Shown: positions 14,435 to 29,358 of the stretch, in pieces | How the letters are laid out: each line of letters begins with the position of its first letter | Position numbering within the stretch: the first letter of the stretch is position 1 | IMG/VR virus record: IMGVR_UViG_3300010885_082162 | Location: 8,039-72,038 of that record | From: a virus | Taxonomy: Duplodnaviria > Caudoviricetes | Direction: 5' to 3' (one strand) | DNA: 64,000 nucleotides | The notes under the pieces: model-generated | Database searches by the model: none | Told to the model about the DNA's origin: nothing | The model's input: the letters and a program-made list of their open reading frames with translations, nothing else | Program-made: the position numbers and the translations under genes

Positions 14435-14836
14435 ATGAATAGAAGATATCTGCCTACGCTATCAGAGCTAATTGATAGACTCTCAATTCTTCAGCTAAAA
14501 GAAGTCTTTATTACTGAACATAAAAAAGAATATTCAGAAGAAATTAAAGACATTGTTCACGATATACAAGAATGTTTAAACGATACAAATACTGTTTTAT
14601 CTGCTGAAGATGTAAGAGCTATTGTTGTACTTTCACAAATGAATCTTCACATATGGCATAATGAGTCAAACTATAGAAAAGGCATTAAAGACGGTAATGA
14701 TCTAGCGCTTACTCATGGCCTTAATGGAATACGAAATACAGCCAAGAATAAGATTCAAGAGTCAGCAGCCGGAAGAAAAGATTATAAAATTGACTGTTTA
14801 GCAGCAGACTTTAAAGATTGGGAGGTAAGCTGGTGA
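14435..14836 (+). CDS. hypothetical protein (helical, 133 aa)
   Basis: TLSELIDRLSILQLK...NLHIWHNE...NGIRN pattern; no function assignable. Confidence 0.7.
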   Translation: MNRRYLPTLSELIDRLSILQLKEVFITEHKKEYSEEIKDIVHDIQECLNDTNTVLSAEDVRAIVVLSQMNLHIWHNESNYRKGIKDGNDLALTHGLNGIRNTAKNKIQESAAGRKDYKIDCLAADFKDWEVSW

Positions 14837-15480
14837 TTATTACATTAAAAGATAAGATTTTAGAAAGACTAAACTTTTACTCCGATAGATTTTATCAAGA
14901 AGGATCTTGTGGAGCTAGACCGAATGGATGTCATTCTATAGAATGCGCTAATAGAAAAAGGCATTATACTGACAAAAATCTATACCACTCATATGGTGAA
15001 TTTTATGCAAGCCTAATAGCAAATTTACTTGGAAGTCAAAAAGAAGAAGACTTTTCAATAATGGAATTAGGAACATATTTTGGCGGATCAATTGCTGCGT
15101 GGTGCGAATCATTACCACAAGCTTTTGTTTGCGGTATTGATCAAAATCTAGATAGATTATGGATCGATCCAAACAACTATCCTAACTTAAAACTAATTTC
15201 AGGCAATCATGAAAATCTACTAACATATGAGTCACTAGGAAGTAGAAAATTTGATCTTATAATCGACGATGGCTCACACATAGCCGATAATCAAATTAGT
15301 AACTTTTCTATACTCAAGAGCAAACTAAAACCAGACGGTGTCTATATTATTGAAGACATTTATCCTGAAAACGTCTATCCTGAAAATTTTTTAAATCAAT
15401 TTGAGCGAGTTGATTTCTCTAAAGACTCTGGTAGGGGAGACGATACACTGCTTGTTTACAAACACACTGAGAAAAAATGA
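14833..15480 (+). CDS. class I SAM-dependent (sugar O-)methyltransferase
   Basis: GTG start 7 nt after GGAGG; MELGTYFGGS, GIDQ, FDLIIDDGSH, LKPDGVYIIEDI. Confidence 0.8.
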   Translation: MIITLKDKILERLNFYSDRFYQEGSCGARPNGCHSIECANRKRHYTDKNLYHSYGEFYASLIANLLGSQKEEDFSIMELGTYFGGSIAAWCESLPQAFVCGIDQNLDRLWIDPNNYPNLKLISGNHENLLTYESLGSRKFDLIIDDGSHIADNQISNFSILKSKLKPDGVYIIEDIYPENVYPENFLNQFERVDFSKDSGRGDDTLLVYKHTEKK

Positions 15481-16004
15481 ATAAAAGAGCATTAATATTA
15501 ACATATGAAAGTTACCAAGACCATGAGGTCATCTATCCATACTATCGACTAACAGAAGATGAGTATGATGTTGAAATTATGTCTAACAAACAGGGAAGAT
15601 TTTATGGCATATTAGGAACATATATGAACGGAACTCATCTACTAAGTGATCTGTCTGATGCAAGCAAAAGAGAAAACTTTTTTAAGTATGACTTACTTGT
15701 AATTCCGGGCGGAGTCAAAGCGCTAGAGTATCTTAGGCAAGAAAAAGATGTTCTCGACTTTATTAATGAGTGGGATAAGAGAAAAAAAGTCATAGCTTGT
15801 ATTTGTCATGGCGCTCAACTTTTAATTTCTTCAAAAGTTGTTGAGGGAAGACAGATCTCTGGGTACTATAGTATTAAGGATGATATTAACAACGCAGGCG
15901 CAATATATGTTGATGCGCCCTTTGTTGTCTCTGACAATATTGTCACATCTCCGCATTATAAGCACATGGGTCCTTGGATGAAAAAAGCGATCAGCATGGT
16001 GTGA
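15477..16004 (+). CDS. DJ-1/PfpI family protein
   Basis: QDHEVIYP (Glu), LVIPGG, ICHGAQLL (nucleophilic Cys), NIVTSP. Confidence 0.9.
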   Translation: MNKRALILTYESYQDHEVIYPYYRLTEDEYDVEIMSNKQGRFYGILGTYMNGTHLLSDLSDASKRENFFKYDLLVIPGGVKALEYLRQEKDVLDFINEWDKRKKVIACICHGAQLLISSKVVEGRQISGYYSIKDDINNAGAIYVDAPFVVSDNIVTSPHYKHMGPWMKKAISMV

Positions 16005-16005
16005 T

Positions 16006-16680
16006 ATGAGTTATAAGACGAATATTGTTAAGAAACCATGGGGCTATGAATATCTAGCATATGAAAATGAAAATGTAGCTTTGTGGTTTCTTAGTATTTT
16101 AAGGGACCAAAAAACTTCAATGCACTGTCACCCAAATAAAACTACGGGCCTGATGGTAATTGATGGAGATGCAGAAGTTTCTTTCTTATCTAATAAGTTA
16201 AGTCTATCTACAAAAGAAAAGACAATGATAAGAAAAGGACTTTTTCATTCTACACATGCAATTGGTTCTAATTTATGCATATTTGAAATTGAAACACCTG
16301 TCAACAAGCACGACCTTGTTAGACTTGAAGACAAATATGGAAGAACAGGTCAACCTTATGAAGATGAATCAAATGAATTACCAAAAGCAAGTGAATGTAT
16401 TTGGATTGACGAACCAGTTAAAGGATTGAGTAATTTCTATAATCTTGGTGGAAAAAAAATAGCTGTTCATCACATTGATAGCATGCAACATATGCAAAGT
16501 CTATTAGCACAAACTAACTCACACATTATGTTTTTAAGAGGAGGTCTCTTAACAGCATATGACATTAATGTTGCAGGTCCCGGTGATATTGTGACCAAAG
16601 ACGTCTTAGAAAAATTGTTAAAAGTTTTTTCTAATATGTCTAATAACACGATTGTTTTAACCCATGAAGGTAACTTTTAA
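16006..16680 (+). CDS. cupin-domain protein (sugar isomerase-like)
   Basis: KKPWGYE, TSMHCHP, FHST, DLVRLEDKYGR. Confidence 0.75.
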   Translation: MSYKTNIVKKPWGYEYLAYENENVALWFLSILRDQKTSMHCHPNKTTGLMVIDGDAEVSFLSNKLSLSTKEKTMIRKGLFHSTHAIGSNLCIFEIETPVNKHDLVRLEDKYGRTGQPYEDESNELPKASECIWIDEPVKGLSNFYNLGGKKIAVHHIDSMQHMQSLLAQTNSHIMFLRGGLLTAYDINVAGPGDIVTKDVLEKLLKVFSNMSNNTIVLTHEGNF

Positions 16681-16682
16681 TT

Positions 16683-17069
16683 ATGAAAGATTTCCCACCA
16701 GGATTTGAAAATGAGTCAAACAATATTGCAATTGACTTTGATGGTGTAATACACGATTTTAGTAAAGGTTTTTATGATGGAACATGCTATGGAGAACCCT
16801 TACCTGGATCAATTGAGTCAATCAAGAAACTATCTAAAAAGTTTAATATTGTTATCTTTACCGCAAAAGCTAAACCAAGTAGGCCTCTTATTCAAGGAAA
16901 AACAGGAAAAGAGCATGTAGAAGACTGGCTTAAAAAGCATGAAATATTTTCTCTAGTAAAAGAAGTAACATCTGAAAAACCAAGAGCTTTTCTGTACATT
17001 GATGATAAAGGTTATAGATTTAGCAACTGGGATGATGCCTTGCTTTTTATAGAAAAAAATTATGAGTGA
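16683..17069 (+). CDS. HAD-family phosphatase
   Basis: AIDFDGVIH, IFTA, EKP, YIDD. Confidence 0.85.
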   Translation: MKDFPPGFENESNNIAIDFDGVIHDFSKGFYDGTCYGEPLPGSIESIKKLSKKFNIVIFTAKAKPSRPLIQGKTGKEHVEDWLKKHEIFSLVKEVTSEKPRAFLYIDDKGYRFSNWDDALLFIEKNYE

Positions 17070-17895
17070 ATACAGTCTAAATGTATTTAAGCGAGCTTCG
17101 CTTTGCAGAAATTTTGAGAAAAAAGTTTTTGATCTTATAAAACTCAATACTTTTAAATTTCCAATTTATCTGTCTGCAGGCCAAGAATATATTGCAGCTT
17201 CAATTGCTGAATGTTTATCTTTGGCAAAGATTAATCCTAATATCTTTATTCAACACAGAGGACATTCAACTTATCTATCTTTTGAAGCGCCCATAGAAGA
17301 ATTAATTGATGAACTTTTAGGAAGAAAAACAGGTTGTTCAAATGGCATGGGTGGATCTGCTTCAATTCAGTCTAGACTTAAAAATATTTATGGTCACGAT
17401 GGTCTGATGGGAAGTCAAGTCCCAATCGCAGTTGGGCACTGTTATTCAACAAAAAAACCTACTATAGTTTTTATGGGTGATGCCTCTGCAGAAGAAGACT
17501 ATGTTTTAGGTGCACTTGGCTGGGCGGCTACTAAAAAACTACCAATATTATTTGTTGTTGAGGATAACAATCTTTCAATTCTCACAGAGAAAAAAGTTAG
17601 AAGAAGTTGGGAGATGGATGATGTTGCTAAATCTTTTGGAATGAATGCGTTTAATATAAATGATGATCCGCACGAGATTCAAGAAGCTTTGACATCTGTG
17701 TTTGCTAGCCCGTTGCTTATAAACGTCAATACGCATAGAAAATATTGGCATGCTGGTGCAGGTATTGATGACGAAACTATCTATGACCGCTATGAAAATG
17801 AAATGAAGACATTAGGCATCAAGGCACAAGAAATACATGAAAAAACACGTCTACATGTAGAGGAATTATGGCAAAGAACGTTAGAGAAACAATAA
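17062..17895 (+). CDS. ThDP-dependent dehydrogenase E1 alpha-like subunit
   Basis: YLSAGQE, HRGHSTY, GMGGSAS, MGDAS...VVEDNN (ThDP/Mg motif). Confidence 0.88.
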   Translation: MSEYSLNVFKRASLCRNFEKKVFDLIKLNTFKFPIYLSAGQEYIAASIAECLSLAKINPNIFIQHRGHSTYLSFEAPIEELIDELLGRKTGCSNGMGGSASIQSRLKNIYGHDGLMGSQVPIAVGHCYSTKKPTIVFMGDASAEEDYVLGALGWAATKKLPILFVVEDNNLSILTEKKVRRSWEMDDVAKSFGMNAFNINDDPHEIQEALTSVFASPLLINVNTHRKYWHAGAGIDDETIYDRYENEMKTLGIKAQEIHEKTRLHVEELWQRTLEKQ

Positions 17896-18779
17896 AGTCT
17901 CTTACTAAGAAACATCTAGAAAGCGGAAAAAGATGTTTTGGGCAGTGTCTAACAGCTGTTGGATGGGTTGGCGGAACACTACCAGAGCTATATGAAGAAG
18001 ACGGAATGGTTGAACTTTCGATGGCCGATGTCTCAGGAGGTTCTATTGTTACAGGAATTGCGCTTGCAGGTGAAAGACCAATTTACGTTGTTAGATATCA
18101 GGGTTTTCAATGGTATAACGCACCGTCAATTGTTAACTATGCTGCCAAGTCAAAAGAAATATGGGGAATACCCTGCCCTATCTTTGTCAGGAGTATTGCG
18201 ATGGAAGGTGGCGTAGGACCAGTTGCTGGCTCTTCACATCATTCACTATATGATAGAATGCCAGGTTTAAAAATTGCTGCACCCATGACCCCACTTGAGT
18301 ATGAAAAAGTTTATGACTCTTTCATGAAAGATGACGTACCATATTACGTTTCAGAGCATAAAAAAAGTTATGATAATTGTGAAGAACTCGAAGATGAAAT
18401 ACATGAAAATTCCGACATAGTATTATTTCCAATATCAATTACAAGATTTTCAGCAAAAGATGCAAAACTAAAATTAGAAGAGCTAGGATACACTGTAAGT
18501 ATCGTTCATCAATTATGGATAAAACCTTTTACTGGGAAGCAAAAATCGGTAGATGCATTAAAAAACTCAAAAGCAGGTTTAGTAATTGATGATGACTACG
18601 CTCAAGGAGTTGCTACAAATATCGCTCATCAGCTTATGTTATCATCTAAAAAAACAGTTGATGTTTTAGGCTTAGAAGAAAGAACAGCGGGTTTTCATCC
18701 AAGCGTTGACTTATTTCCACCAAGCTCTGAAAACATAATCAATAAATGTCTAGAGTTACTATCAACTAAATTAACATGA
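17868..18779 (+). CDS. ThDP-dependent dehydrogenase E1 beta / transketolase C-terminal-like subunit
   Basis: GIALAGERPI, IVNYAAK, MPGLKIAAPMTP; RBS gagga; no E2/E3 nearby. Confidence 0.88.
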   Translation: MAKNVRETIKSLTKKHLESGKRCFGQCLTAVGWVGGTLPELYEEDGMVELSMADVSGGSIVTGIALAGERPIYVVRYQGFQWYNAPSIVNYAAKSKEIWGIPCPIFVRSIAMEGGVGPVAGSSHHSLYDRMPGLKIAAPMTPLEYEKVYDSFMKDDVPYYVSEHKKSYDNCEELEDEIHENSDIVLFPISITRFSAKDAKLKLEELGYTVSIVHQLWIKPFTGKQKSVDALKNSKAGLVIDDDYAQGVATNIAHQLMLSSKKTVDVLGLEERTAGFHPSVDLFPPSSENIINKCLELLSTKLT

Positions 18780-19258
18780 TATTTTCTGATGTCAAAGAGT
18801 ATGAAGCAAGTTATTACAGTGACTACAGAGGAGACTTGTGGACACTGTGGAAAGAGGATGAAACATATCCATCTATTAAATTTAATCATGACAAAGTTTC
18901 AACATCAAGAAAGAATGTGTTAAGAGGCATTCACGGTGATTTTAAGTCAACTAAATTGGTAACATGTTTGTTTGGAGAAATTTATTTTGTAGTTGTTGAT
19001 AACCGTCCAGACTCACCTACATTTAAAAAGTGGGATTGGACTATGCTAAGTGATAAGAACAAGAAATCTATACTACTTCCACCTGGTTTCGGCAATGGAT
19101 TTCTTGCAATGAGTAAACATTCTGTATTCCACTATAAATGGTCTTATGAGGGATCGTATCCTGATGTTGATGAGCAATTTACTATTAAATGGAATGATTC
19201 TACTATCGGAATTGACTGGCCGATTTTAAATCCAATTTTACAAAAAAGAGACAAGTGA
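18776..19258 (+). CDS. RmlC-family NDP-4-keto-6-deoxy sugar 3(,5)-epimerase, resembling Campylobacter MlghB/DdahB heptose epimerases
   Basis: RGDLWT, KFNHDK, NVLRGIHGD, KLVTC, VVVDNRPDSPT, QFTIKWND..IGIDWP...PIL..RD. Confidence 0.85.
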   Translation: MIFSDVKEYEASYYSDYRGDLWTLWKEDETYPSIKFNHDKVSTSRKNVLRGIHGDFKSTKLVTCLFGEIYFVVVDNRPDSPTFKKWDWTMLSDKNKKSILLPPGFGNGFLAMSKHSVFHYKWSYEGSYPDVDEQFTIKWNDSTIGIDWPILNPILQKRDK

Positions 19259-19262
19259 CATT

Positions 19263-20444
19263 ATGCAAAACTTTAAATGGCCGCTAATCAATGATAACGT
19301 TTCAGACAGCGATAAAAAAGCTTTAATAAAATTTCTTTCTGAGCCTGGTGTAAGACTAACCCAGGGAAAAAAGGTACAAGAGTTTGAAAAGAAATGGTCC
19401 GAGTGGCTCGGTGTTTCTTATAGCGTATTTGTTAACTCGGGTGCCTCCGCAAATTACATTATGACTGCAATTTGCCGCGACGTAAAAGGAGTAGGCGAGA
19501 TAATTGTACCTCCTCTTGGCTGGGTCTCTGATATTGCTGCCGTCGTAAATCTCGGCATGATCCCTGTATTTGTTGACATCTCAATGGAAAATTTAGCAAT
19601 TACTGCTGAAAATATTGAAGAGGCAATAACAGAAAATACAAAAGCAATAGTTTTAGTTCATACGCTAGGATTTAATGGCATAAATGATAAAATTATTGAA
19701 ATTGCAAAAAAATACAATTTGATGTTGATTGAAGATTGCTGTGAGTCACATGGAGCAACCTTCAATGAAAGAAAAGTTGGAACGCTTGGAGATATATCAA
19801 ATTTTTCATTCTACTTCGGTCATCATATGACTACAATTGAAGGCGGAATGATATGCACAAATGATAAAGAACTTTATGATCTTGCTAAACTCTACAGATC
19901 ACACGGTATGATTCGTGAGCTTGACGAAGAAACTAAAACAAAATACTCAAATGAAAATCCATCTCTAAATCCTCTGTTCACTTTCGTAGTGCCTGGATTT
20001 AATATGAGGAGCACTGAAATCAATGCAGTAATTGGATTAGAACAGCTAAAACATTTAGACAGTGCAATTCAAAAAAGAACTAATAATCTTTTAAGCTGGC
20101 TTTCTAAGCTTGACTCTAAGCTATTCATTACAGAGTTTCACACATTAGGCAGCAGTAATTTCTCTCTACCTCTAATTTTGCGTAAACCAAACGAAGATGC
20201 TTTTAAAAAGATATGTGATATTCTTGATAGTGAAGGAATTGAATACAGAAAAGGTACAGCCGGCGGAGGTAATCAAGCACGTCAACCTTACTTAAAAAAG
20301 TTTATTCATAAAATTGTAGGAAATTTAAAAACAGTCAATCACGTACACGATTTTGGACTTTACATTGGTAATCATTCTGACGTTAATGATGAAGATATTG
20401 AAAAAATTTGTCTTAAATTTTCTCAGGAGATTACTAATGTTTAA
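19263..20444 (+). CDS. PLP-dependent NDP-4-keto-6-deoxy sugar C3-dehydratase (ColD-like; DegT/DnrJ fold)
   Basis: FVNSGASAN, IEDCCESHGA, SFYFGHHMTTIEGG with His at the position of the aminotransferase Lys; no RfbH-type Cys cluster for Fe-S seen. Confidence 0.85.
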   Translation: MQNFKWPLINDNVSDSDKKALIKFLSEPGVRLTQGKKVQEFEKKWSEWLGVSYSVFVNSGASANYIMTAICRDVKGVGEIIVPPLGWVSDIAAVVNLGMIPVFVDISMENLAITAENIEEAITENTKAIVLVHTLGFNGINDKIIEIAKKYNLMLIEDCCESHGATFNERKVGTLGDISNFSFYFGHHMTTIEGGMICTNDKELYDLAKLYRSHGMIRELDEETKTKYSNENPSLNPLFTFVVPGFNMRSTEINAVIGLEQLKHLDSAIQKRTNNLLSWLSKLDSKLFITEFHTLGSSNFSLPLILRKPNEDAFKKICDILDSEGIEYRKGTAGGGNQARQPYLKKFIHKIVGNLKTVNHVHDFGLYIGNHSDVNDEDIEKICLKFSQEITNV

Positions 20445-21411
20445 AAACAAGAAAGTATTAGTTACTGGTGGGAATGGGATGATTGGCAGGCATCTCATTG
20501 ACCTTCTACAAAAGAGGGGAGCAAATATTAGAGTTGCCGACATTAGACAAGCCCCTGATGTAAAAGGCGTAGAATTTGTCAATGTTGACCTCAGAGACTT
20601 TAATTCATGTAAAAAAATATGTGACAATATTGACTACGTCTTTAATTTAGTTGGAATTAAATGCTCGCCAAAAGTGTGTATTGAAAGACCTGCTGATATT
20701 ATGGGCCCAATGCTTCAGTTTAATACAAACATGTTAGAAGCAGCAATGCAAGCAAATATAAAATGGTACTTGTATACAAGCACAGTAGGTGTTTATGCAC
20801 CAGCCGAAGTCTTTCATGAAGATGATGTTTGGTCTTCTCAGCCTTCTAAAAACGACTGGTTTGGCGGGTGGGCAAAAAGAATGGGTGAACTTCAGTGTCA
20901 AGCATATGAAAAACAATTCGGTGAAGGAAAATGCAGCATTGTGAGACCTGCTAATGTTTATGGTCCATATGATAACTTTGATCTTGAAAGCTCAATGGTC
21001 ATACCATCATTAATTAGAAAAGCATTTTCAAATGGAAAGCTTTCTGTTTGGGGTGACGGATCAGCTGTAAGAGACTTTATTCATGCAAAAGATGTTGCAG
21101 AAGGTATGATCTTTGCAGTTGAAAATAAGATAACAGATCCTTTAAATTTAGGATCTGGGAGTGGAGTTACAATAAAAGAAGTTGCAGACTGTGTTGCTGA
21201 GATAGTTGGAGTTGATGTAGAGTGGGATCTATCTAAACCAACAGGTGATGCTAAGAGAATTTTTGATACTAAGCGTGCACAAAAATTAGGTTTTGCACCA
21301 AAGATAACAATTAGACAAGGCATAGAAGAAACTGTTAAGTGGTATGTGAAAAATATTCAAGAAGCGAATACAAGACTTGACACATTTAAGCTCTTAAAAG
21401 AAAAAGTTTAA
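20437..21411 (+). CDS. extended SDR, Fcl/GME-like NDP-sugar epimerase/reductase lacking the catalytic Tyr
   Basis: Start 20437 after AGGAG; VTGGNGMIG, TSTVGVY, FGGWAK (Gly at the YxxxK Tyr position), RPANVYGPYDNF. Confidence 0.85.
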   Translation: MFKNKKVLVTGGNGMIGRHLIDLLQKRGANIRVADIRQAPDVKGVEFVNVDLRDFNSCKKICDNIDYVFNLVGIKCSPKVCIERPADIMGPMLQFNTNMLEAAMQANIKWYLYTSTVGVYAPAEVFHEDDVWSSQPSKNDWFGGWAKRMGELQCQAYEKQFGEGKCSIVRPANVYGPYDNFDLESSMVIPSLIRKAFSNGKLSVWGDGSAVRDFIHAKDVAEGMIFAVENKITDPLNLGSGSGVTIKEVADCVAEIVGVDVEWDLSKPTGDAKRIFDTKRAQKLGFAPKITIRQGIEETVKWYVKNIQEANTRLDTFKLLKEKV

Positions 21412-21987
21412 ATGAATAGAATTCTAGTCACAGGCGCGAGTTCAGGTCTAGGCAAATATTTGTCAAAAAAGTTTGAAGACGAAGGTCATTTTGTTCTAAA
21501 GCACAATGGAAAAAATCACTTTAATCTAATTAATTTAAACGACTTAAACAGACTAATTTGTCTTGCAAAAGAAAATAAAATTGATGTATTAATCAATAAC
21601 GCAGCCATTACATGCCCAGGAAAGAAGCTACATGAGTATAGCCAGGACGAGATAGTTGATATGACAAGTGTTAATTTGCTTGCCCCTATTCTTCTTACTC
21701 ATGGTCTAGTTGATCAATTAAATTGTGTTATCAACATAAACTCAATGGTTGGTCTAGAAATAAAGCCAAAAAGAACGTTATATTCAGCTACGAAATGGGG
21801 ACTAAGAGGATTCTCTCAAAGTTTTTCGTCTGAGAATGAAAGAATTCATATTCTTGACGTATATCCAACTAATATTAAGACAAGTCCTGAAAAAGAAAAC
21901 GCGATGGATATAAACTTTGTTCTAGATGAAATCTATAATGCATTTTTAAATAAAGAGAAACGGCTGGTTTTAGATGGAAGAAAATAA
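21412..21987 (+). CDS. classical short-chain dehydrogenase/reductase
   Basis: VTGASSGLG, LINNAA, NINS, YSATK. Confidence 0.88.
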   Translation: MNRILVTGASSGLGKYLSKKFEDEGHFVLKHNGKNHFNLINLNDLNRLICLAKENKIDVLINNAAITCPGKKLHEYSQDEIVDMTSVNLLAPILLTHGLVDQLNCVININSMVGLEIKPKRTLYSATKWGLRGFSQSFSSENERIHILDVYPTNIKTSPEKENAMDINFVLDEIYNAFLNKEKRLVLDGRK

Positions 21988-22939
21988 AAAGCTGATGCTA
22001 ATTTGTGGTGCTACTGGCTTTATTGGTAGAAATTTACTTGACTTCTTTGTCAAGAAAGACATCTATAAAATTAGAGCAACTCATTTTTCTAGAACCGCAC
22101 CCAAAGGTTATGAAAATGTCGAATGGGTAAAGTGCGATCTAAAAGATCATAATTCTGTGAAGTCAATCATGAAAGGAGTTGATGTTGTTCTACAATTTGC
22201 AGCAACAACGTCGGGCGCAAAAGATATTATTGCTAAACCCTATATTCATGTAACTGACAATGCAATAATGAATTCTTTGTTGTTAAGAGAAGCCTTCGAA
22301 CAGAGCGTAGAACATTTTGTATTTCCAAGCTGCACAATAATGTATCAGAAATCAGCCATCGCAATTTCTGAAGATGATTATAATCCATCAGATGAAATTT
22401 TACCTTTTTACTATGGCGCAGGTCATACGAAAGTTTACCTAGAAAAAATGTGCGAGTTCTATTCAAGAATTGGGAAAACTAAGCATACTGTCATTAGACA
22501 CTCAAATCTCTATGGATCGTATGATAAGTTTGACCTAGAGAAATCACACGTTTTTGGAGCTACAGTAACAAAAGTCATGTCATCAAAAGATGATAAGATA
22601 ATTGTGTGGGGTACAGGAGAAGAACAAAGAGACTTGCTTCATATTGATGACTTTTTAAGTTTTGTTGAGATTGCACTGCAAAAACAGGCTACACAATATG
22701 AGCTAGTAAATGTTGGTCTAGGAGAAGGAATTAAAATTAAAGACTTGGTTCGAAAGATAGTAAAAGCTTCAGGAAAAAAGCTACAGATTGAACACGACCT
22801 TTCCAAGCCTTCAGTACCAACATCGCTTTATTTAAATTGCAACAGAGCTAAAAATATCTTTGGATGGACACCGAAAGTATCGCTTGAAGAAGGTATAAAA
22901 AAGACGCTAGCTTGGTATAATCAAAATATCTTCTTTTAA
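21974..22939 (+). CDS. extended SDR, Fcl-like NDP-sugar epimerase lacking the catalytic Tyr
   Basis: CGATGFIG, FPSCTIMY, GAGHTK (Ala at the Tyr position), SNLYG, SHVFGA. Confidence 0.85.
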   Translation: MEENKKLMLICGATGFIGRNLLDFFVKKDIYKIRATHFSRTAPKGYENVEWVKCDLKDHNSVKSIMKGVDVVLQFAATTSGAKDIIAKPYIHVTDNAIMNSLLLREAFEQSVEHFVFPSCTIMYQKSAIAISEDDYNPSDEILPFYYGAGHTKVYLEKMCEFYSRIGKTKHTVIRHSNLYGSYDKFDLEKSHVFGATVTKVMSSKDDKIIVWGTGEEQRDLLHIDDFLSFVEIALQKQATQYELVNVGLGEGIKIKDLVRKIVKASGKKLQIEHDLSKPSVPTSLYLNCNRAKNIFGWTPKVSLEEGIKKTLAWYNQNIFF

Positions 22940-23046
22940 AAGACTACAACTTGCAAAATTATTGATTATATATGCCTGTAGCTTAAGTCATCTTGATAAG
23001 CAAAATATTTCAAATGAAATCAGAGTAATAAATTAGTAAGAGGATT

Positions 23047-23802
23047 ATGTTAAAACAACAGATTGATTTTTTTCATGAAAATGGCTTTCTAGTCGTAAAT
23101 GATATCTTTACTAAAGACGATGCTGATCACTGTAATAGACTAATAAGAAGACATGCAAATATTGACTTTGCTGCAATTGTTAATCCTGACCGTTATGAAG
23201 ATTTAATAGCGCAAGACGAGAGACCAAAATCAAATATAACATTAGAAGAAATAGAAGAAACTTGCAACTATTTTTTATCAGCTATGAAAAATTTTAAGAT
23301 TGTGTCTACATTAGAGAGTCTAACGGGTAAAGAAATTGTAGGCTTAAGTAGTCAATTTATCTTTAAAGAAGCATACTCTAGATACGCAAGTCAAGCGTGG
23401 AGTATTCACCAAGATGGTTGGTATCCTGGCGACAAACATGGTGATTATGTAACTGCAAACTGGTTTCTTAGAGATACAGATGTAAAAAATGGCACAATCT
23501 TTGTATATCCCGGTTCACATAAGCTGGGATTATTACATGCACAGCCTCAAAAAAGTTTTAGAGAGGATTATAATAAAAGTCCCGGTAGCAATTGCACTTT
23601 ACCTGACGATTTTAAGATTGAAAAAGTCGATCTAGAGATTTCTAAATCATCAGTTGTATTTCTTCATGGTCATTGCGTGCATGGTTCTTATCCGAATACC
23701 TCAGAAAGATCGAGACCATGGCATTCCTTCTGCTACATTACAAAAGGATCAAATTTTGTCATTGGTCAAAATGCTAAGAGAAGAGAAATTAACTTAAGAT
23801 GA
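23047..23802 (+). CDS. PhyH-family Fe(II)/2-oxoglutarate dioxygenase
   Basis: IHQDGWY (HxD), NGTIFVYPGSH, VVFLHGHCVHGSYPNTSERSR. Confidence 0.9.
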   Translation: MLKQQIDFFHENGFLVVNDIFTKDDADHCNRLIRRHANIDFAAIVNPDRYEDLIAQDERPKSNITLEEIEETCNYFLSAMKNFKIVSTLESLTGKEIVGLSSQFIFKEAYSRYASQAWSIHQDGWYPGDKHGDYVTANWFLRDTDVKNGTIFVYPGSHKLGLLHAQPQKSFREDYNKSPGSNCTLPDDFKIEKVDLEISKSSVVFLHGHCVHGSYPNTSERSRPWHSFCYITKGSNFVIGQNAKRREINLR

Positions 23803-23825: not shown

Positions 23826-23880
23826 TTTCCTTTAACTGAATAAAATTAGCTATAAGCCGATTTCTAAAGGGAAGATAACT

Positions 23881-25317
23881 ATGTTGTTTAAGAGTAGTGA
23901 TGAAAGACTTCAAAAGTCTAAGCTAACAGTGCTAGCTAAGAAATATGAACACAGTGCGTTCATGTATACTCATTATCCGCATAAAAGATTTTGGAGTCAA
24001 AATAAAAATGACGCTAGCTTTAAGAGTTCTCTCATAACCCTCAACAAGCAAAACAATCTAACAGCAATGTTGTATGTGCATATGCCGTATTGCCAACAGC
24101 TTTGTTATTTCTGCACGTGTCACGTATCTATTACTAATGATTATCAAAAAGTAAAAGACTACATGGAAATTTTATTCAAAGAAATTGATCATTTTTCTAA
24201 TTTCCTCACTGATAATAAAATTAAATTAGACGTTAAAGAAATTCACCTCGGCGGAGGATCTCCAACTTTTATAGAGGAAGCAGAGTTTGATATACTTTGT
24301 CAAAAGCTTGAAAAGATTGTGGACATAAAACTGTTGAGAGAATTTGCAATAGAAATTGATCCTCGAAGAGTTGATGTTCAAAAAATGAGATATTATCACA
24401 GCAAAGGAATTAATAGGATTTCTTTTGGAATTCAAGACTTTGATTCAAAAGTCCAAAATGCTGTCAATAGAATCCAGCCAGTTGAGCTAATTGATGACCT
24501 GCTTACACCTGAGATAAGAGACTTATTTAAGAATGGAATCAATTTTGATATTATCTGCGGTTTACCACATCAAACTGTTGACTCAATTAAACTAACAGCA
24601 AAAGAATGCGTTCGACTTTCTCCTGAAAGAATTTGCTTAAATTATCTTCATTACTCTCCTGTTTTTGCACCTCAGCAGAAATTCATGATAGATGGCAAAG
24701 ATGGTAGACCAACTAAGCTTCCTGATTTCTTTGAAAGAAAAGAACTCTTTAGTGCTACTCAAGATGTGCTGGTTGATGGAGGATATGTTCGAACTGGTTA
24801 TGACCATTTTGCTAAACCATTTGATGATGTTGCAAAAGCAGTTGATCAAAAAAAGGTCTACTGGAATTCGATGGGTGTTACACCCGGTGAGTATAATAAC
24901 ATAATTGGTCTCGGAATTAGTAGTGAGTCTACTGTTGGAAATTCTTATTTTCAGAACTTCTATGATATGTTAGACTACACTAGCTCAGTACTGTCAAACT
25001 GCTTTCCTATATATAGAGAATATGAATTAACAGACGACGATCTTGTGAGAAAAGACGTAATACAGCAAATAAGAAATTATTTTGAAATTAATTTTTCATC
25101 CATTGAAGAAGCACATAAAATTAATTTCCAAAGCTATTTTAGCGATGAAATGACAAAAATTAAAACTTTTGAAGAAGATGAGATTTTAGTCATTGAAAAA
25201 AATCAAATAAGACTCACTGAGACGGGTAGACAATTTACTAATATCGTGTGCAGAGTTTTTGATAAATATTATTCTGATGACTTGAGAAAAAAAGATTTAG
25301 GGATTAGAGTAGATTGA
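23881..25317 (+). CDS. hemN: HemN-like radical SAM enzyme (oxygen-independent coproporphyrinogen III oxidase family)
   Basis: YVHMPYCQQLCYFCTC (CxxxCxxCxC), IHLGGGSPT, RISFGIQDF, GYDHFAKP, GLGISS, LTETGR. Confidence 0.82.
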   Translation: MLFKSSDERLQKSKLTVLAKKYEHSAFMYTHYPHKRFWSQNKNDASFKSSLITLNKQNNLTAMLYVHMPYCQQLCYFCTCHVSITNDYQKVKDYMEILFKEIDHFSNFLTDNKIKLDVKEIHLGGGSPTFIEEAEFDILCQKLEKIVDIKLLREFAIEIDPRRVDVQKMRYYHSKGINRISFGIQDFDSKVQNAVNRIQPVELIDDLLTPEIRDLFKNGINFDIICGLPHQTVDSIKLTAKECVRLSPERICLNYLHYSPVFAPQQKFMIDGKDGRPTKLPDFFERKELFSATQDVLVDGGYVRTGYDHFAKPFDDVAKAVDQKKVYWNSMGVTPGEYNNIIGLGISSESTVGNSYFQNFYDMLDYTSSVLSNCFPIYREYELTDDDLVRKDVIQQIRNYFEINFSSIEEAHKINFQSYFSDEMTKIKTFEEDEILVIEKNQIRLTETGRQFTNIVCRVFDKYYSDDLRKKDLGIRVD

Positions 25318-27204: not shown

Positions 27205-28214
27205 AAGCAATTATTACAGGTATAACTGGCATGGTAGGCTCACACTTAGCAGACTTTTTGCTTGAGAACACGGACTGGGAAATTCACGGCATGATGAGAT
27301 GGTTCGAACCAACAAAAAATATTGAGCATCTCTCACGAAGAATAAATGATAAAGATCGAATAGAACTACACAATGCTGACCTTAATGATTTTGCAAGCCT
27401 GATGTCACTTATAAAAAAAGTCAAACCAGACTATGTGTTTCATTTAGCAGCTCAAAGTTATCCAAAGACTAGTTTTGACTCTCCACTTGAGACTTTGCAA
27501 ACCAACATAATTGGAACATGCGCACTGCTAGAGGCAATTAGACTCTCAGAAATTGACTTAAAAAAAATTACTGTACATGTCTGCGCAAGCTCCGAAGTCT
27601 TTGGAAGAGTTTCAAAAGATAAACTTCCAATTCACGAAGATGTTAACTTTCATCCAGCTTCACCGTACGCAATTTCCAAAGTTGGCACTGATTTAATTGG
27701 AAGATTTTATGCTGAAGCATATGGAATGAGAGTCATGACGACTAGAATGTTTACACATACGGGACCTCGCAGAGGTGACGTTTTTGCTGAATCTTCATTT
27801 GCTAAGCAAATTGCGCTAATAGAAGCCGGTAAAATACCGCCTATTTTAAAAGTAGGTAATCTAGATTCTCTTAGAACATGGGCAGATGTTCGTGATGCAG
27901 TTAGAGCATATTACATGCTTGTGACTAATAATCCTGTCGCAGGTGAGTACTACAACATTGGCGGCTCTTATACGTGTTCTGTAAGAGACATGTTAAATTT
28001 TCTTCTTAAAAATTCTACAGTTAAAAACATACAAGTTGTCGTAGATCCGGATAGGCTTAGGCCTATTGATGCTGATCTTCAGATACCTGACACAAATAAG
28101 TTTAAGAGCCACACCGGTTGGCAGCCTGAGATTAGTTTTGAAAAAACAATGTTAGAATTATTACAATATTGGCGTAATGAAGTAAGAAAAGATACTGCCG
28201 AAATTGTAAGATAA
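27201..28214 (+). CDS. GDP-sugar 4,6-dehydratase of the WcbK/DmhA (GDP-manno-heptose 4,6-dehydratase) subfamily
   Basis: ITGITGMVGSHLADFLLENTDW, HLAAQSYPKTSFDSP, CASSEVFG, HPASPYAISKVGTD, THTGPRRGDVFAES, RLRPIDADLQ. These match my recollection of Burkholderia WcbK and Yersinia DmhA better than canonical Gmd. Confidence 0.82.
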   Translation: MKAIITGITGMVGSHLADFLLENTDWEIHGMMRWFEPTKNIEHLSRRINDKDRIELHNADLNDFASLMSLIKKVKPDYVFHLAAQSYPKTSFDSPLETLQTNIIGTCALLEAIRLSEIDLKKITVHVCASSEVFGRVSKDKLPIHEDVNFHPASPYAISKVGTDLIGRFYAEAYGMRVMTTRMFTHTGPRRGDVFAESSFAKQIALIEAGKIPPILKVGNLDSLRTWADVRDAVRAYYMLVTNNPVAGEYYNIGGSYTCSVRDMLNFLLKNSTVKNIQVVVDPDRLRPIDADLQIPDTNKFKSHTGWQPEISFEKTMLELLQYWRNEVRKDTAEIVR

Positions 28215-28991: not shown

Positions 28992-29358
28992 TTGCATTCA
29001 TGCAGGTCACGTTGAGATACTTGACTACGCCAGAAAAAAAGGTCATAAACTGATTGTTGGTATCGACTCTGACGATAGAGTGAAAAAATCAAAAGGTGCC
29101 AACAGACCTATTCATAGTCAAGATAGCAGAAAAAGAGTGCTTGAGTCGATTAAACACGTAGATGAAGTTGTAATTTTTTCTTCTGACGAAGAGCTTGTAG
29201 AATGTATTAAAAAATCTGGCGCATCTCTCATTGTCGTTGGATCAGACTACATAGATAAAAAAGTAATAGGCTCTGAATTAGTAGAAGTTAATTTTTTTAA
29301 GAGAATACCGGAATTTTCAAGCACAAAAATAATAGAAAAAGGAGGCCTCAATGAGTAG
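28963..29358 (+). CDS. HldE/RfaE domain II-like nucleotidyltransferase (heptose-1-phosphate adenylyl/cytidylyltransferase family)
   Basis: Likely start 28963; NGCFDCIHAGH (HxGH), LIVGIDSD, RPI, VGSDY, SSTKII. Confidence 0.88.
   Translation: MIVWTNGCFDCIHAGHVEILDYARKKGHKLIVGIDSDDRVKKSKGANRPIHSQDSRKRVLESIKHVDEVVIFSSDEELVECIKKSGASLIVVGSDYIDKKVIGSELVEVNFFKRIPEFSSTKIIEKGGLNE

What the first reader, a model, noticed from the sequence alone, without database searches (positions are those of the whole stretch)
17062..22939. Operon for a C4-branched 3,6-dideoxy sugar (yersiniose-like) using a stand-alone PDH-E1-type ThDP pair
Seen: E1 alpha + E1 beta (no E2/E3), RmlC-type epimerase, PLP enzyme with His instead of Lys (SFYFGHH), two extended SDRs and a classical SDR, all tightly coupled. 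Established: His-type PLP enzymes (ColD, RfbH) remove the C3 hydroxyl; ThDP enzymes add a pyruvate-derived two-carbon branch to NDP-4-keto sugars (YerE for yersiniose A; the E1-like pair AviB1/AviB2 for eurekanate); a reductase then gives the hydroxyethyl branch. Inference: 4,6-dehydration (27201), C3-deoxygenation, epimerisation, C4 acetyl addition and SDR reduction give a branched dideoxy sugar. I know of no described phage pathway of this kind. The E1 beta has Asp (SMAD) where PDH has the ThDP-activating Glu.
Basis: partly seen in the sequence, partly recalled or inferred. Interest (0 to 1): 0.85.

Follow-up and report, generated by a model that had tools for sequence, protein, structure and literature searches.

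The report
Phage heptose operon with thiamine enzyme
A large freshwater phage carries a tightly packed operon that turns a seven-carbon nucleotide sugar into a 3,6-dideoxy-4-keto form, and a stand-alone two-subunit thiamine enzyme in it probably adds a two-carbon branch; no member of this cassette has been studied, although it is also common in uncultured phages, SAR11-type bacteria and ultra-small bacteria and archaea.

Summary
The genes are E1 alpha and E1 beta with no E2 or lipoyl partner, an RmlC-type epimerase, a His-type (ColD-like) PLP 3-dehydratase, two extended SDRs and one classical SDR, all translationally coupled. The E1 beta carries Asp where PDH has the ThDP-activating Glu.

The substrate is not GDP-mannose. 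The "gmd" at 27201 matches the C. jejuni GDP-heptose 4,6-dehydratase (379 bits, against 165 for true GMD). The epimerase matches GDP-4-keto-heptose epimerases, and HldA/HldC-like heptose activation genes follow. Dehydratase, C3-dehydratase and epimerase therefore repeat three of the four steps of the known C. jejuni 3,6-dideoxy-heptose route.

The new part is the E1 pair. It belongs to a small family with no named or characterised member. The Asp is invariant in its core clade. The pair is almost always flanked by a DJ-1/PfpI protein and a metal cupin, and usually by a His-type 3-dehydratase. A two-carbon branch on the 4-keto-heptose is the best reading (about 0.5), by analogy with AviB1/B2-type enzymes, but it is inferred. 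The conserved helpers are not explained by it.

This scan has met the same cassette before on other DNA (at least 9 genomes), and those follow-ups reached the same conclusion.

The parts
14435..14836 (+). p133, a phage-only protein of unknown function found at the head of the cassette in many phages
   Evidence: No Pfam hit. It is 69-94% identical in 37 of 38 distinct viral homologues (one at 39%), more conserved than the enzymes, and was not found in the bacterial loci. The protein atlas gives only viral hypothetical clusters.
15477..16004 (+). DJ-1/PfpI-family protein with the Cys-His nucleophile motif kept
   Evidence: PF01965, 120 bits. TIGR01382, 123 bits. The 'ACICHG' motif aligns to PfpI/DJ-1D 'SICHG'. 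It lies next to the E1 pair in 62 of 64 viral loci and in 30 of the 45 genome-collection loci.
16006..16680 (+). Two-domain metal cupin (cup224), a conserved partner of the E1 pair
   Evidence: Weak PMI C-terminal cupin hit. H40, H42, H81, E94 and E96 are invariant in 25 homologues. The AlphaFold model has pLDDT 92.5. Fold matches are generic metal cupins: PMI, KdgF, cysteine dioxygenase and oxalate decarboxylase. It is fused to a HAD_2 phosphatase in a Nanoarchaeota locus.
16683..17069 (+). p128, a minimal capless HAD-fold phosphatase; a candidate heptose-bisphosphate phosphatase
   Evidence: DFDGV motif I and YIDD motif are invariant. The model has pLDDT 86.6. Fold matches are weak: small HAD proteins, including GmhB (2gmw) and the phage arabinose-1,5-bisphosphate phosphatase AfhF. 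No sequence similarity to GmhB beyond motif I. It overlaps the E1 alpha start by 8 nt.
17062..17895 (+). E1 alpha-like ThDP (PP-domain) subunit
   Evidence: PF00676, 72 bits. TIGR03182 PDH E1 alpha, 111 bits, far below its cut-off of 394. GDxxxEED...EDNN and a 'WHAG' His are conserved across 43 homologues.
17868..18779 (+). E1 beta-like (PYR-domain) subunit with Asp at the ThDP-activating position
   Evidence: Transket_pyr plus Transketolase_C. Asp54 aligns to Glu59 of Geobacillus E1 beta. The Asp is invariant in 48 of 48 family members from phages, bacteria and archaea. Glu returns only in distant members at 28-33% identity. The subunits are fused alpha-beta in a Saccharibacteria locus.
18776..19258 (+). 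NDP-4-keto-heptose 3,5- (or 3- or 5-) epimerase
   Evidence: Best solved match is the C. jejuni GDP-D-glycero-4-keto-D-lyxo-heptose 3,5-epimerase 8db5 (E 3.7e-48, 167 bits), against 93 bits for dTDP RmlC.
19263..20444 (+). PLP/PMP-dependent C3-dehydratase of the ColD type (His in place of the Schiff-base Lys)
   Evidence: ColD 2gms, E 6.5e-59; the CDP E1 dehydrase 3bcx, E 4e-47; His aligns with ColD His188. 22 of 24 DegT proteins that lie beside the E1 pair in the first set of loci (mostly bacterial and archaeal) also carry His there.
20437..21411 (+). SDR_A, an extended SDR related to GDP-fucose synthase and GDP-mannose 3,5-epimerase, with an atypical active-site motif
   Evidence: GFS 7ll6, E 1.3e-32. 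The catalytic Tyr of YxxxK aligns to Gly or Phe (FGGWAK). The family motif is [YF]-G/A-G-W-A-K, with Y and F interchanging. It directly follows E1 beta in many of the bacterial loci.
21412..21987 (+). Classical SDR, 191 aa, canonical YSATK; a candidate ketoreductase for a branch carbonyl
   Evidence: PF00106, 82 bits. YxxxK is present. It co-occurs in 18 viral loci and in several bacterial loci.
21974..22939 (+). SDR_B, a second extended SDR and paralogue of SDR_A, also without a canonical YxxxK
   Evidence: GFS, E 6e-23. Its motif is Y-[FY]-G-A-G-x-T-K.
23047..23802 (+). PhyH-type Fe(II)/2-oxoglutarate oxygenase, a frequent member of the cassette
   Evidence: PF05721, 71 bits. Matches cluster with the E1 pair in many first-set loci and in 16 viral loci.
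23881..25317 (+). HemN-like radical SAM enzyme
   Evidence: TIGR00538, 351 bits, above its cut-off. It was found with the cassette in few loci: L005, L022, L040, L043, L047 and L063.
25336..27204 (+). B12-binding radical SAM enzyme; a candidate C-methyltransferase
   Evidence: B12-binding plus Radical_SAM. The best NCBIfam models are B12-rSAM methyltransferases, all far below cut-off. It is present in the eight-gene T4-like cassette L100 and in the Nitrospira loci.
27201..28214 (+). NDP-D-glycero-D-manno-heptose 4,6-dehydratase (DmhA/WcbK type), not GMD
   Evidence: 7us5, E 1.9e-112, 379 bits, against 165 bits for E. coli GMD. 55% identical to a gene in the heptose island of Synechococcus phage Bellamy.
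28218..28991 (+). HldA-like heptose-7-phosphate kinase (PfkB family)
   Evidence: TIGR02198 rfaE_dom_I, 137 bits, below its cut-off of 345.
28909..29358 (+). HldC-like heptose-1-phosphate nucleotidyltransferase
   Evidence: TIGR02199 rfaE_dom_II, 118 bits, below its cut-off of 181. The real start is probably downstream of the listed TTG.
29351..29716 (+). Small cupin (cup121), WbuC-like, conserved beside the heptose activation genes in phages
   Evidence: Cupin_2, 33 bits. Found in 22 viral loci.

Best explanation
The stretch is the core of a phage-borne heptose-tailoring operon.

Steps supported by close homology to characterised enzymes:
1. An activated D-glycero-D-manno-heptose is made by an HldA-like kinase, the small HAD phosphatase p128 and an HldC-like nucleotidyltransferase.
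2. The heptose 4,6-dehydratase (27201-28214) converts it to NDP-6-deoxy-4-keto-heptose.
3. The ColD-type PLP enzyme (19263-20444) removes the C3 hydroxyl, giving NDP-3,6-dideoxy-4-keto-heptose.
4. The RmlC-type enzyme (18776-19258) epimerises it.

Step that is inferred: the E2-less E1 alpha/beta pair binds ThDP, decarboxylates pyruvate, and adds the resulting hydroxyethyl-ThDP carbanion to the C4 carbonyl of this keto-heptose. This is how AviB1/B2-type E1 pairs and YerE work. The product would be a 4-C-acetyl tertiary alcohol, that is, a branched nine-carbon sugar.

More speculative: the classical SDR reduces the branch carbonyl. The B12-radical SAM enzyme, PhyH, the metal cupin and DJ-1 then tailor the two-carbon branch. 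The chemistries these families are known for fit that idea: ketol isomerisation for cupins, 2-oxoaldehyde to 2-hydroxyacid for DJ-1, hydroxylation for PhyH and C-methylation for B12-rSAM.

The many glycosyltransferases on either side then place the sugar on a phage or host surface glycan.
For: Heptose substrate:
- The dehydratase matches C. jejuni 7us5 at 379 bits, against 165 for GMD.
- The epimerase matches heptose epimerases at 167 bits, against 93 for RmlC.
- HldA/HldC-like genes are adjacent.
- In the bacterial loci examined, the cassette lies beside GDP-heptose genes: the full GmhA/HddA/GmhB/HddC set in two loci and a GHMP kinase in a third. A GHMP kinase is present in 31 of 45 genome-collection loci.
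- The dehydratase, C3-dehydratase, epimerase and reductase route is proven in C. jejuni (PMC10440746).

3-Deoxygenation:
- The ColD alignment places His at position 188.

E1 pair as a working, stand-alone ThDP enzyme:
- The ThDP/Mg motif and both active-site His residues are conserved across 43 homologues.
- The Asp is invariant in 48 of 48, with Glu at the same column in distant members. It is therefore a selected trait and not decay.
- An alpha-beta fusion exists.
- No E2 or lipoyl domain is found in three cassette-bearing phage genomes that are at least 93% complete.

Link between the E1 pair and the keto-sugar:
- A ColD-like gene lies beside the pair in 56 of 64 viral loci.
- 22 of 24 co-located DegT proteins in the first locus set are His-type.
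- E1 beta, the epimerase and ColD overlap or abut.

Precedent:
- E2-less E1 pairs in deoxysugar clusters are the 'alphaKADH2' C2-branching enzymes. KbDH alpha/beta was shown in vitro and AlmDI/DII by knockout (PMC12247030).
- AviB1/B2 and Pau11/12 are proposed to do the same (PMC4753412).
Against: - No experiment exists on any member of this family, and every relative found is an unnamed environmental sequence.
- Kinship with AviB1/B2-type enzymes could not be tested.
- DJ-1 and the cupin are as tightly linked to the E1 pair as anything else (62 and 61 of 64 viral loci), and a simple pyruvate-to-C4 transfer does not need them.
- The cupin is followed by, or fused to, a HAD phosphatase. This hints at a phosphorylated or small-molecule substrate rather than an NDP-sugar.
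- The near-exclusive association with heptose pathways suggests chemistry that needs the C6-C7 side chain, which a C4 branch does not.
- The two conserved extended SDRs would have no obvious job if C4 becomes a tertiary alcohol, and both lack a canonical YxxxK.
- Asp for Glu at the cofactor-activating site might change reactivity.
- HldA/HldC normally give ADP-beta-heptose, whereas the dehydratase family is known with GDP-alpha-heptose.
Confidence: 0.5

Rival explanations
1. The ThDP pair works together with DJ-1, the metal cupin and the HAD phosphatase on something other than C4 of the NDP-sugar. One option is making or processing an unusual 2-oxoacid donor or a sugar phosphate. Another is acting on an oxidised C6-C7 side chain of the heptose, that is, its ketol, 2-oxoaldehyde or 2-oxoacid states. 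These are the substrates these four enzyme families are known to handle. The sugar would still be an unusual modified heptose, but not a C4-acetyl-branched one.
For: - DJ-1 and the cupin are present in 62 and 61 of 64 viral loci and in most bacterial loci, directly upstream of E1 alpha.
- A cupin-HAD_2 fusion exists in Nanoarchaeota, and cupin-p128 are adjacent in phages.
- The cassette is strictly associated with heptose genes.
- The DJ-1 protein keeps its catalytic Cys-His and the cupin keeps an invariant His/Glu metal site.
Against: - The Nitrospira-type loci carry the E1 pair with a His-type dehydratase and B12-rSAM genes but without DJ-1 or the cupin, so the pair can work without them.
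- No precedent is known for such side-chain chemistry.
- The cupin fold matches are generic.
- Gene fusion shows a shared pathway, not consecutive steps.
Confidence: 0.25
2. The operon makes only an ordinary unbranched 3,6-dideoxy-heptose, as in C. jejuni HS:5/HS:11. The E1 pair is catalytically dead because Glu is replaced by Asp, or serves a structural or unrelated role.
For: - Homologues of the first three C. jejuni enzymes are present, and possible reductases exist: SDR_A, SDR_B and the RmlD-like p278 with YTISK.
- Asp replaces the cofactor-activating Glu.
Against: - Asp, the ThDP/Mg motif and the active-site His residues are invariant over a family that spans phages, bacteria and archaea at 45-80% identity. 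This indicates purifying selection on an active site.
- Phages keep the pair even in an eight-gene cassette.
- Cultured cyanophage heptose islands lack the pair, so it is an added function and not part of the basic route.
Confidence: 0.08
3. One reading: GDP-mannose is dehydrated by Gmd, deoxygenated by ColD and branched at C4 to give a yersiniose-like 3,6-dideoxy-hexose (an octose).
For: ColD is the best solved match of the PLP enzyme. The extended SDRs resemble GDP-fucose and colitose synthases. A GT11 (fucosyl- or colitosyl-transferase family) gene lies upstream.
Against: The dehydratase and epimerase score about twice as high against the heptose-specific enzymes as against GMD and RmlC. 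Heptose activation genes are adjacent, and no ManC was seen in the proteins that were scanned. Bacterial cassettes sit in GDP-heptose clusters.
Confidence: 0.05
4. The pair is a true pyruvate or acetoin dehydrogenase E1 used as a central-carbon auxiliary metabolic gene, borrowing the host's E2 and E3.
For: The best named matches are PDH E1 alpha and beta. Sources annotate relatives as pyruvate or acetoin dehydrogenase.
Against: - Scores are far below the family cut-offs (111 against 394 bits; 46 against 321).
- The beta family is sharply bounded, with only 70 representatives at E below 1e-30.
- In every locus whose genes were listed, the pair lies among sugar genes and never with E2 or E3.
- The phosphorylation-loop Ser residues are replaced.
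Confidence: 0.02

Closest known systems
alphaKADH2-type (PDH-E1-like alpha/beta) sugar C-branching ThDP enzymes of actinomycete antibiotics: AviB1/AviB2 (avilamycin), Pau11/Pau12 (paulomycin), AlmDI/DII (aldgamycin), KbDH alpha/beta (kibdelomycin)
   Same: A two-subunit E1 without E2 or E3, encoded inside a deoxysugar pathway that produces an NDP-keto sugar. Pyruvate-derived C2 transfer to the keto carbon is their established or proposed role (PMC12247030, PMC4753412).
   Different: Those enzymes act on dTDP-hexose or pentose intermediates of secondary metabolites in Actinomycetota. This pair is in a heptose glycan cassette of phages, Pelagibacteraceae, CPR and DPANN. It has fixed DJ-1 and cupin partners and Asp at the activating position. 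Sequence kinship was not testable here.
YerE/YerF (yersiniose A) and relatives ErwE and MMAR_2332 (erwiniose, caryophyllose)
   Same: A ThDP-dependent acyl-anion addition to the C4 carbonyl of a 3,6-dideoxy-4-keto nucleotide sugar made with a PMP/PLP 3-dehydratase, for a cell-surface glycan, followed by reduction of the branch carbonyl.
   Different: YerE is a single-chain decarboxylase-superfamily (acetolactate-synthase-like) flavoprotein acting on a CDP-hexose. This is an E1-type heterodimer on a heptose pathway with a ColD-type dehydratase and no sign of an E3 reductase.
Campylobacter jejuni HS:5/HS:11 GDP-3,6-dideoxy-heptose pathway (Ghosh, Xiang and Raushel 2023, PMC10440746)
   Same: A heptose 4,6-dehydratase, a PLP C3-dehydratase and a cupin epimerase have clear homologues here (379 and 167 bits to the solved C. 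jejuni dehydratase and epimerase).
   Different: C. jejuni has no ThDP enzyme, DJ-1, cup224, PhyH or radical SAM genes. It uses the GHMP kinase/HddC route to GDP-heptose, whereas this phage has HldA/HldC-like genes. Its C4-reductases are ordinary SDRs, whereas SDR_A and SDR_B here have an atypical motif.
ColD / colitose pathway (GDP-4-keto-6-deoxymannose 3-dehydratase)
   Same: ColD is the best solved match of the PLP enzyme, with His at the Lys position. No Fe-S reductase partner was seen among the annotated genes.
   Different: The neighbouring dehydratase and epimerase are heptose-specific types, so the substrate is probably the heptose analogue.
Heptose islands of cultured cyanophages (Synechococcus phage Bellamy, SynMITS9220M01)
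   Same: A phage-encoded phosphoheptose isomerase, kinase, nucleotidyltransferase, small cupin and a 55%-identical heptose 4,6-dehydratase.
   Different: These islands have no E1 pair, DJ-1, cup224 or ColD-type enzyme. They are annotated only, not characterised.

Membership tests
PDH / acetoin / BCKDH E1 (lipoyl-E2-dependent 2-oxoacid dehydrogenase E1) | Scores above the curated family cut-offs for E1 alpha and E1 beta | tested here: not met
   TIGR03182 scores 111 bits against a cut-off of 394. NF006667 scores 46 bits against 321.
PDH / acetoin / BCKDH E1 (lipoyl-E2-dependent 2-oxoacid dehydrogenase E1) | Encoded with, or dependent on, a lipoylated E2 and an E3 | tested here: not met
   No PF00198 or PF00364 in the contig or in three cassette-bearing phage genomes that are at least 93% complete. 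None appears in any neighbourhood listed. Use of a host E2 cannot be excluded by sequence.
PDH / acetoin / BCKDH E1 (lipoyl-E2-dependent 2-oxoacid dehydrogenase E1) | Glu on the beta (PYR) subunit that activates ThDP N1' | tested here: not met
   Asp stands at the aligned position. It is invariant in 48 of 48 relatives.
ThDP-dependent enzymes in general | GDG-X(25-30)-NN type ThDP/Mg2+ binding motif on the PP domain | tested here: met
   GDAS...EDNN aligns with GDGA...ENN of human E1 alpha and is conserved in 43 homologues.
alphaKADH2-type sugar C-branching E1 pairs (AviB1/B2, AlmDI/DII, KbDH) | E2-less alpha/beta pair located within an NDP-deoxysugar pathway that yields a keto sugar | tested here: met
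   The pair lies between the heptose activation/dehydratase genes and the ColD-type dehydratase and epimerase.
alphaKADH2-type sugar C-branching E1 pairs (AviB1/B2, AlmDI/DII, KbDH) | Sequence and phylogenetic grouping with the characterised members | not testable with these tools
   No sequence of AviB1/B2, Pau11/12, AlmDI/DII or KbDH could be fetched. None is in the PDB. All relatives found are unnamed environmental proteins.
alphaKADH2-type sugar C-branching E1 pairs (AviB1/B2, AlmDI/DII, KbDH) | Pyruvate-dependent C2 transfer to the keto carbon of the sugar | not testable with these tools
   This needs an enzyme assay.
ColD / E1-dehydrase type NDP-4-keto-6-deoxysugar 3-dehydratases | DegT fold with His replacing the PLP-binding Lys | tested here: met
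   Aligned to ColD His188; the H188N and H188K mutant entries mark the column.
GDP-heptose 4,6-dehydratase (DmhA/WcbK) as opposed to GDP-mannose 4,6-dehydratase | Closer to the characterised heptose enzyme than to GMD; catalytic YxxxK present | tested here: met
   7us5 scores 379 bits against 165 for GMD 1db3. It is below the GMD equivalog cut-off (199 against 415). YAISK is present. Nucleotide specificity (GDP or ADP) was not tested.
GDP-4-keto-heptose 3/5-epimerases (C. jejuni Cj1430 type) | Closer to the characterised heptose epimerases than to dTDP RmlC | tested here: met
   8db5 scores 167 bits against 93 for RmlC 1dzr.
GDP-fucose synthase / C4-reductase type extended SDRs | Catalytic Ser/Thr-Tyr-Lys triad (YxxxK) | tested here: not met
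   In SDR_A, Gly or Phe aligns to the GFS and GME Tyr. The family motif is [YF]GGWAK with Y and F interchanging. SDR_B has Y[FY]GAGxTK.

The most novel reading that the evidence does not exclude
A hitherto undescribed class of carbon-branched heptose (a nine-carbon sugar) is made by a mobile cassette shared among aquatic phages, SAR11 and SAR116, Nitrospira, CPR bacteria and DPANN archaea. Its C-C bond is forged by a new Asp-type clade of E2-less E1 ThDP enzymes. The two-carbon branch is then remodelled by a fixed helper set (DJ-1, metal cupin, PhyH, B12-radical SAM and atypical SDRs) that has no counterpart in known branched-sugar pathways. Phages use the sugar to decorate their own virions or to rewrite the host surface.
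Probability: 0.35. Interest if true: 0.8.

Novelty: new variant of a known kind. Interest (0 to 1): 0.62.

Why it matters
If the E1 pair does branch a keto-heptose, three things follow.

- E1-type sugar branching would extend from a few actinomycete antibiotics to the surface glycans of some of the most abundant aquatic microbes and their phages.
- A new sugar skeleton would be defined.
- The family would offer a natural Glu-to-Asp variant of the ThDP activation site for mechanistic study.

The cassette is frequent. The alpha subunit has 2,859 homologues in public data, and at least 66 viral contigs carry the pair. It appears to have moved repeatedly between phages and bacteria.

It therefore probably shapes phage-host recognition in lakes and oceans. 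A phage could carry it to glycosylate its own particle, or to alter the receptor landscape of the infected cell.

The pathway can be reconstituted directly, because the first three steps have characterised C. jejuni counterparts.

Tried and rejected
- Kinship with AviB1/B2, AlmDI/DII or KbDH: no sequences were reachable. This remains untested.
- cup224: a profile search against PDB sequences, Foldseek on a confident model and the protein atlas gave only generic metal cupins. No function can be assigned.
- p133: no Pfam hit, and the atlas lists only viral hypotheticals.
- p128 compared with GmhB or with the HAD domain fused to the cupin in Nanoarchaeota: no similarity beyond motif I.
- Promoter and terminator scan of 14000-30500: counts are no higher than in shuffles, so operon boundaries rest only on gene spacing.
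- DNA hypermodification as the destination of the sugar. Heptosyl-5hmC is known in phages (bioRxiv 2023.12.21.572611). No ThyA-like hydroxymethylase was found in the window contig or in three cassette-bearing phage genomes that are at least 93% complete. The Tet/JBP search also found nothing, but its control rang in no genome, so it is uninformative. I treat this destination as unlikely, not excluded.
- Phosphonate reading, prompted by the P-methyltransferase-like best hit of the B12-rSAM enzyme: no PEP mutase appears in any neighbourhood listed, and the scores are far below cut-off. Rejected.
- Expression: no RNA holder was listed among public runs. This is not evidence either way.
- Cultured phages: no E1 alpha relative above 27% identity among 50,697 phage records.
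- Literature searches for viral acoA/pdhA auxiliary genes found nothing, and a search for phage heptose, glycosylation and jumbo phages found nothing on this cassette.

Full report
CONTEXT. The window is bases 8039-72038 of a 72-kb IMG/VR viral contig that CheckV rates as 22% complete. GC content is about 35%. A glycan island of roughly 29 kb on the + strand (4560-33335) holds at least seven glycosyltransferases. It is followed by structural genes, including a baseplate wedge protein about 30% identical to those of Flavobacterium and Microcystis myophages. Near-identical DNA occurs in freshwater and lake metagenomes and viromes of 13 studies; two of those samples may be the source of this contig. 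This is therefore a recurrent freshwater phage.

OBSERVATION.
- E1 alpha (17062-17895) keeps the ThDP/Mg motif (GDAS...EDNN) and a conserved His in 'WHAG', where PDH has 'YHGHS'.
- E1 beta (17868-18779) has Asp where Geobacillus PDH E1 beta has Glu59.
- The PLP enzyme (19263-20444) aligns over its whole length with ColD, and its His falls on ColD His188.
- The first extended SDR starts at the ATG at 20437, which overlaps the ColD-like stop, not at the TTG at 20353.
- Genes from 14435 to 22939 overlap or are at most 4 nt apart.
- No E2 core or lipoyl domain is encoded in the contig.

THE SUBSTRATE IS A HEPTOSE.
It also falls below the GMD equivalog cut-off.
- The RmlC-type protein matches the C. 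jejuni GDP-4-keto-heptose 3,5- and 3-epimerases at 153-167 bits, against 93 bits for RmlC.
- The next two genes are HldA-like and HldC-like: heptose-7-phosphate kinase and heptose-1-phosphate nucleotidyltransferase.
- The 128-aa protein overlapping the E1 alpha start is a minimal HAD phosphatase (DFDGV motif, model pLDDT 86.6). It has weak fold matches that include GmhB and a phage sugar-bisphosphate phosphatase.
- No GmhA was found in the 72 kb, but most of the genome is missing.

Heptose 4,6-dehydratase, PLP C3-dehydratase, C5-epimerase and C4-reductase are exactly the four enzymes shown by Ghosh, Xiang and Raushel to make GDP-3,6-dideoxy-heptoses in C. jejuni HS:5 and HS:11 (PMC10440746). 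Homologues of the first three are clear here. That part of the operon is known chemistry in a new host. A cultured cyanophage, Bellamy, already carries an annotated heptose island with a 55%-identical dehydratase but no E1 pair.

THE E1 PAIR AND ITS FAMILY.
- E1 alpha has 2,859 homologues in public protein data. Nearly all of the 120 listed are 276-281 aa long and at least 70% identical, and the sources of most are aquatic metagenomes. No cultured phage has a relative above 27% identity.
- An all-against-library search with E1 beta finds a small, sharply bounded family: 702 representatives at E up to 1e-3 and 70 at E up to 1e-30, in 1.8 billion proteins. None of the members looked up has a functional name.
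- The Asp is invariant in 48 of 48 members drawn from phage contigs, Pelagibacteraceae, SAR116, Nitrospira, Terriglobia, CPR bacteria and DPANN archaea.
- In members at 28-33% identity the same column carries Glu. This confirms that the column is the cofactor-activating position and that Asp is a derived, selected trait of the core clade.
- Those Glu-type relatives also lie in phage-like contigs beside extended SDR genes. One contig also holds DJ-1, PhyH and radical SAM genes; the other holds a GHMP kinase and a terminase.
- A Saccharibacteria locus encodes the two subunits as one 629-aa protein.
- Three cassette-bearing phage genomes that are at least 93% complete (186, 173 and 318 kb) have no E2 or lipoyl domain.

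CONSERVED NEIGHBOURHOOD.
- In the first set of 48 loci (45 from bacterial and archaeal genome assemblies, the window's own contig and two from a related phage scaffold), the E1 pair is accompanied by the DJ-1/PfpI protein in 33, the 224-aa cupin in 37 and extended SDRs in most. Matches to PhyH occur in 19, a heptose-type dehydratase in 23 and a DegT protein in 24, of which 22 have His at the Lys site.
- A GHMP kinase of the HddA type lies within 10 kb in 31 of the 45 genome-collection loci.
- Three bacterial neighbourhoods read in full showed GDP-heptose genes directly beside the cassette: the complete GmhA/HddA/GmhB/HddC set in a Pelagibacteraceae and a Rickettsiales locus, and a GHMP kinase in a Terriglobia locus.
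- In 64 IMG/VR viral loci the counts are DJ-1 62, cupin 61, ColD-like 56, SDR_A 45, epimerase 37, heptose dehydratase 33, and HldA-like 33 or GHMP kinase 17.
- A T4-like phage contig carries an eight-gene version, in the order cupin, B12-rSAM, DJ-1, E1 alpha, E1 beta, GHMP kinase, ColD-type enzyme, SDR. It lies a few genes downstream of UvsW and upstream of Mre11/Rad50-like genes.
- The Nitrospira loci have the pair with a His-type dehydratase and several B12-rSAM genes but no DJ-1 or cupin.
- A FastTree of E1 beta, rooted on the Glu-type members, places soil and groundwater bacteria, CPR and DPANN basally. Viral and Pelagibacteraceae, SAR116 and gammaproteobacterial sequences interleave in the crown, which suggests repeated phage-host exchange. 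Branch supports were not examined.

MECHANISM. The first part is supported by homology: heptose activation, 4,6-dehydration, C3-deoxygenation and epimerisation give an NDP-3,6-dideoxy-4-keto-heptose.

The second part is inferred: the E1 pair decarboxylates pyruvate and adds the C2 unit to the C4 carbonyl. The grounds are as follows.
(i) The known E2-less E1 pairs in deoxysugar clusters are described as C2-branching enzymes ('alphaKADH2'). KbDH was shown in vitro and AlmDI/DII by knockout. AviB1/B2 and Pau11/12 are proposed (PMC12247030; PMC4753412).
(ii) YerE uses precisely a 3,6-dideoxy-4-keto nucleotide sugar as acceptor.
(iii) The pair is tightly linked to His-type 3-dehydratases.
(iv) A canonical classical SDR stands next to it and could reduce the branch carbonyl.

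I put this at about 0.5.

WHAT DOES NOT FIT.
- DJ-1, with its Cys-His intact, and the metal cupin, with an invariant His/Glu site, are as constant as the pair itself, and pyruvate-to-ketone transfer does not need them.
- The cupin is followed by a HAD phosphatase in phages and fused to one in a Nanoarchaeota locus that also has a separate GmhB-like gene.
- The association with heptose rather than hexose pathways is nearly exclusive.
- Both conserved extended SDRs lack a canonical YxxxK. In SDR_A the GFS and GME Tyr aligns to Gly or Phe, and Y and F interchange across the family. SDR_B has Y[FY]GAGxTK.

One way to reconcile these points is that the helpers tailor the new two-carbon branch. Ketol isomerisation, 2-oxoaldehyde to 2-hydroxyacid conversion, hydroxylation and C-methylation are the chemistries these families are known for, and branch oxidation, methylation and amination occur in the antibiotic examples. 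The alternative is that the ThDP step itself happens elsewhere, on the side chain, on a sugar phosphate or with an unusual donor. I give that 0.25.

DESTINATION OF THE SUGAR. This was not resolved. The island is rich in glycosyltransferases and abuts tail genes. Two GT-B genes (30875-33335, one hitting the 'GT4-conflict' model) and a PD-(D/E)XK nuclease travel with the cassette in many phages. Heptosylated 5hmC DNA is known in phages. However, no ThyA-like hydroxymethylase was found in the phage genomes searched, three of them at least 93% complete. The Tet/JBP search found nothing either, but its control was uninformative.

RELATION TO EARLIER WORK IN THIS SCAN. After I had reached the heptose reading, look-ups showed that the scan has met this cassette on other DNA in at least 9 genomes. 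Several follow-ups came to the same conclusion. Those are AI notes, not independent evidence.

This report adds the following:
- the freshwater origin of this phage;
- the Asp/Glu boundary of the family;
- the absence of E2 and lipoyl domains in complete phage genomes;
- the cupin-HAD fusion;
- the atypical SDR motif;
- the absence of the ThyA-type hydroxymethylase route to glycosylated DNA.

VERDICT. It is a new variant of a known kind: E1-type sugar C-branching grafted onto the known 3,6-dideoxy-heptose route. It has an uncharacterised helper set and a wide, mobile distribution.

Noticed in passing
window 14435-14836: p133 is a 133-aa protein with no detectable family. It is 69-94% identical in 37 of 38 distinct viral homologues, more conserved than the enzymes, and was not found in the bacterial loci. 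It may be a phage-specific regulator or accessory protein of the sugar pathway.
   Followed up: partly
window 20437-21411 and 21974-22939: Both conserved extended SDRs lack the canonical YxxxK. SDR_A has [YF]GGWAK (Phe in this phage) and SDR_B has Y[FY]GAGxTK. They look like a distinct atypical subfamily of GDP-fucose-synthase-like proteins and may not be ordinary 4-ketoreductases.
   Followed up: partly
window 30013-33335: A PD-(D/E)XK nuclease and two GT-B glycosyltransferases (one above the cut-off of the 'GT4-conflict' Pfam model) are syntenic with the cassette in many viral contigs, usually just upstream of it. This raises the possibility of a conflict-related or DNA-directed use of the sugar.
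   Followed up: partly
L031:2515-3921 (Nanoarchaeota MAG): The cup224 homologue is fused to a HAD_2 phosphatase domain in a locus that also has a separate GmhB-like HAD. In phages the cupin is followed by the small HAD p128.
   Followed up: partly
L054:5719-7788 (Rickettsiales MAG); also L006, L009, L033, L041: A second, divergent and fused E1 alpha-beta protein (689 aa, about 25-29% identical to the pair studied) sits in the same heptose clusters. Some bacteria therefore carry two different ThDP modules per locus.
   Followed up: no
L043:9174-11063 (Saccharibacteria MAG): The E1 alpha and beta of the studied family are encoded as a single 629-aa fusion protein.
   Followed up: no
L100:6492-14012 (IMG/VR T4-like contig): An eight-gene version of the cassette (cupin, B12-rSAM, DJ-1, E1 alpha, E1 beta, GHMP kinase, ColD-type enzyme, SDR) lies a few genes downstream of UvsW and upstream of Mre11/Rad50-like genes. 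No dehydratase or nucleotidyltransferase was seen nearby.
   Followed up: partly
window 13553-14389: A 278-aa ORF with weak Epimerase hits and a canonical YTISK motif, but with a degenerate Rossmann motif. It may be an RmlD-like 4-ketoreductase for an unbranched sugar made in parallel.
   Followed up: no
window 23881-25317: The HemN-like radical SAM protein scores above the curated HemN cut-off (351 against 325 bits), yet it sits in a sugar operon. It accompanies the cassette in only a few loci.
   Followed up: no
whole window (run search on 17062-22939): Near-identical DNA is held by freshwater and lake metagenomes and viromes from 13 studies dated 2017-2025 (two samples may be the source of this contig), whereas most relatives of the cassette come from marine samples. 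The phage appears to be a persistent lake phage of unknown host.
   Followed up: partly
window 7500-8983: GT11 (fucosyl- or colitosyl-transferase family) and GT6 genes lie upstream. GT11 enzymes transfer 6-deoxy and 3,6-dideoxy GDP-sugars, so one of them may be the transferase for the deoxyheptose.
   Followed up: no
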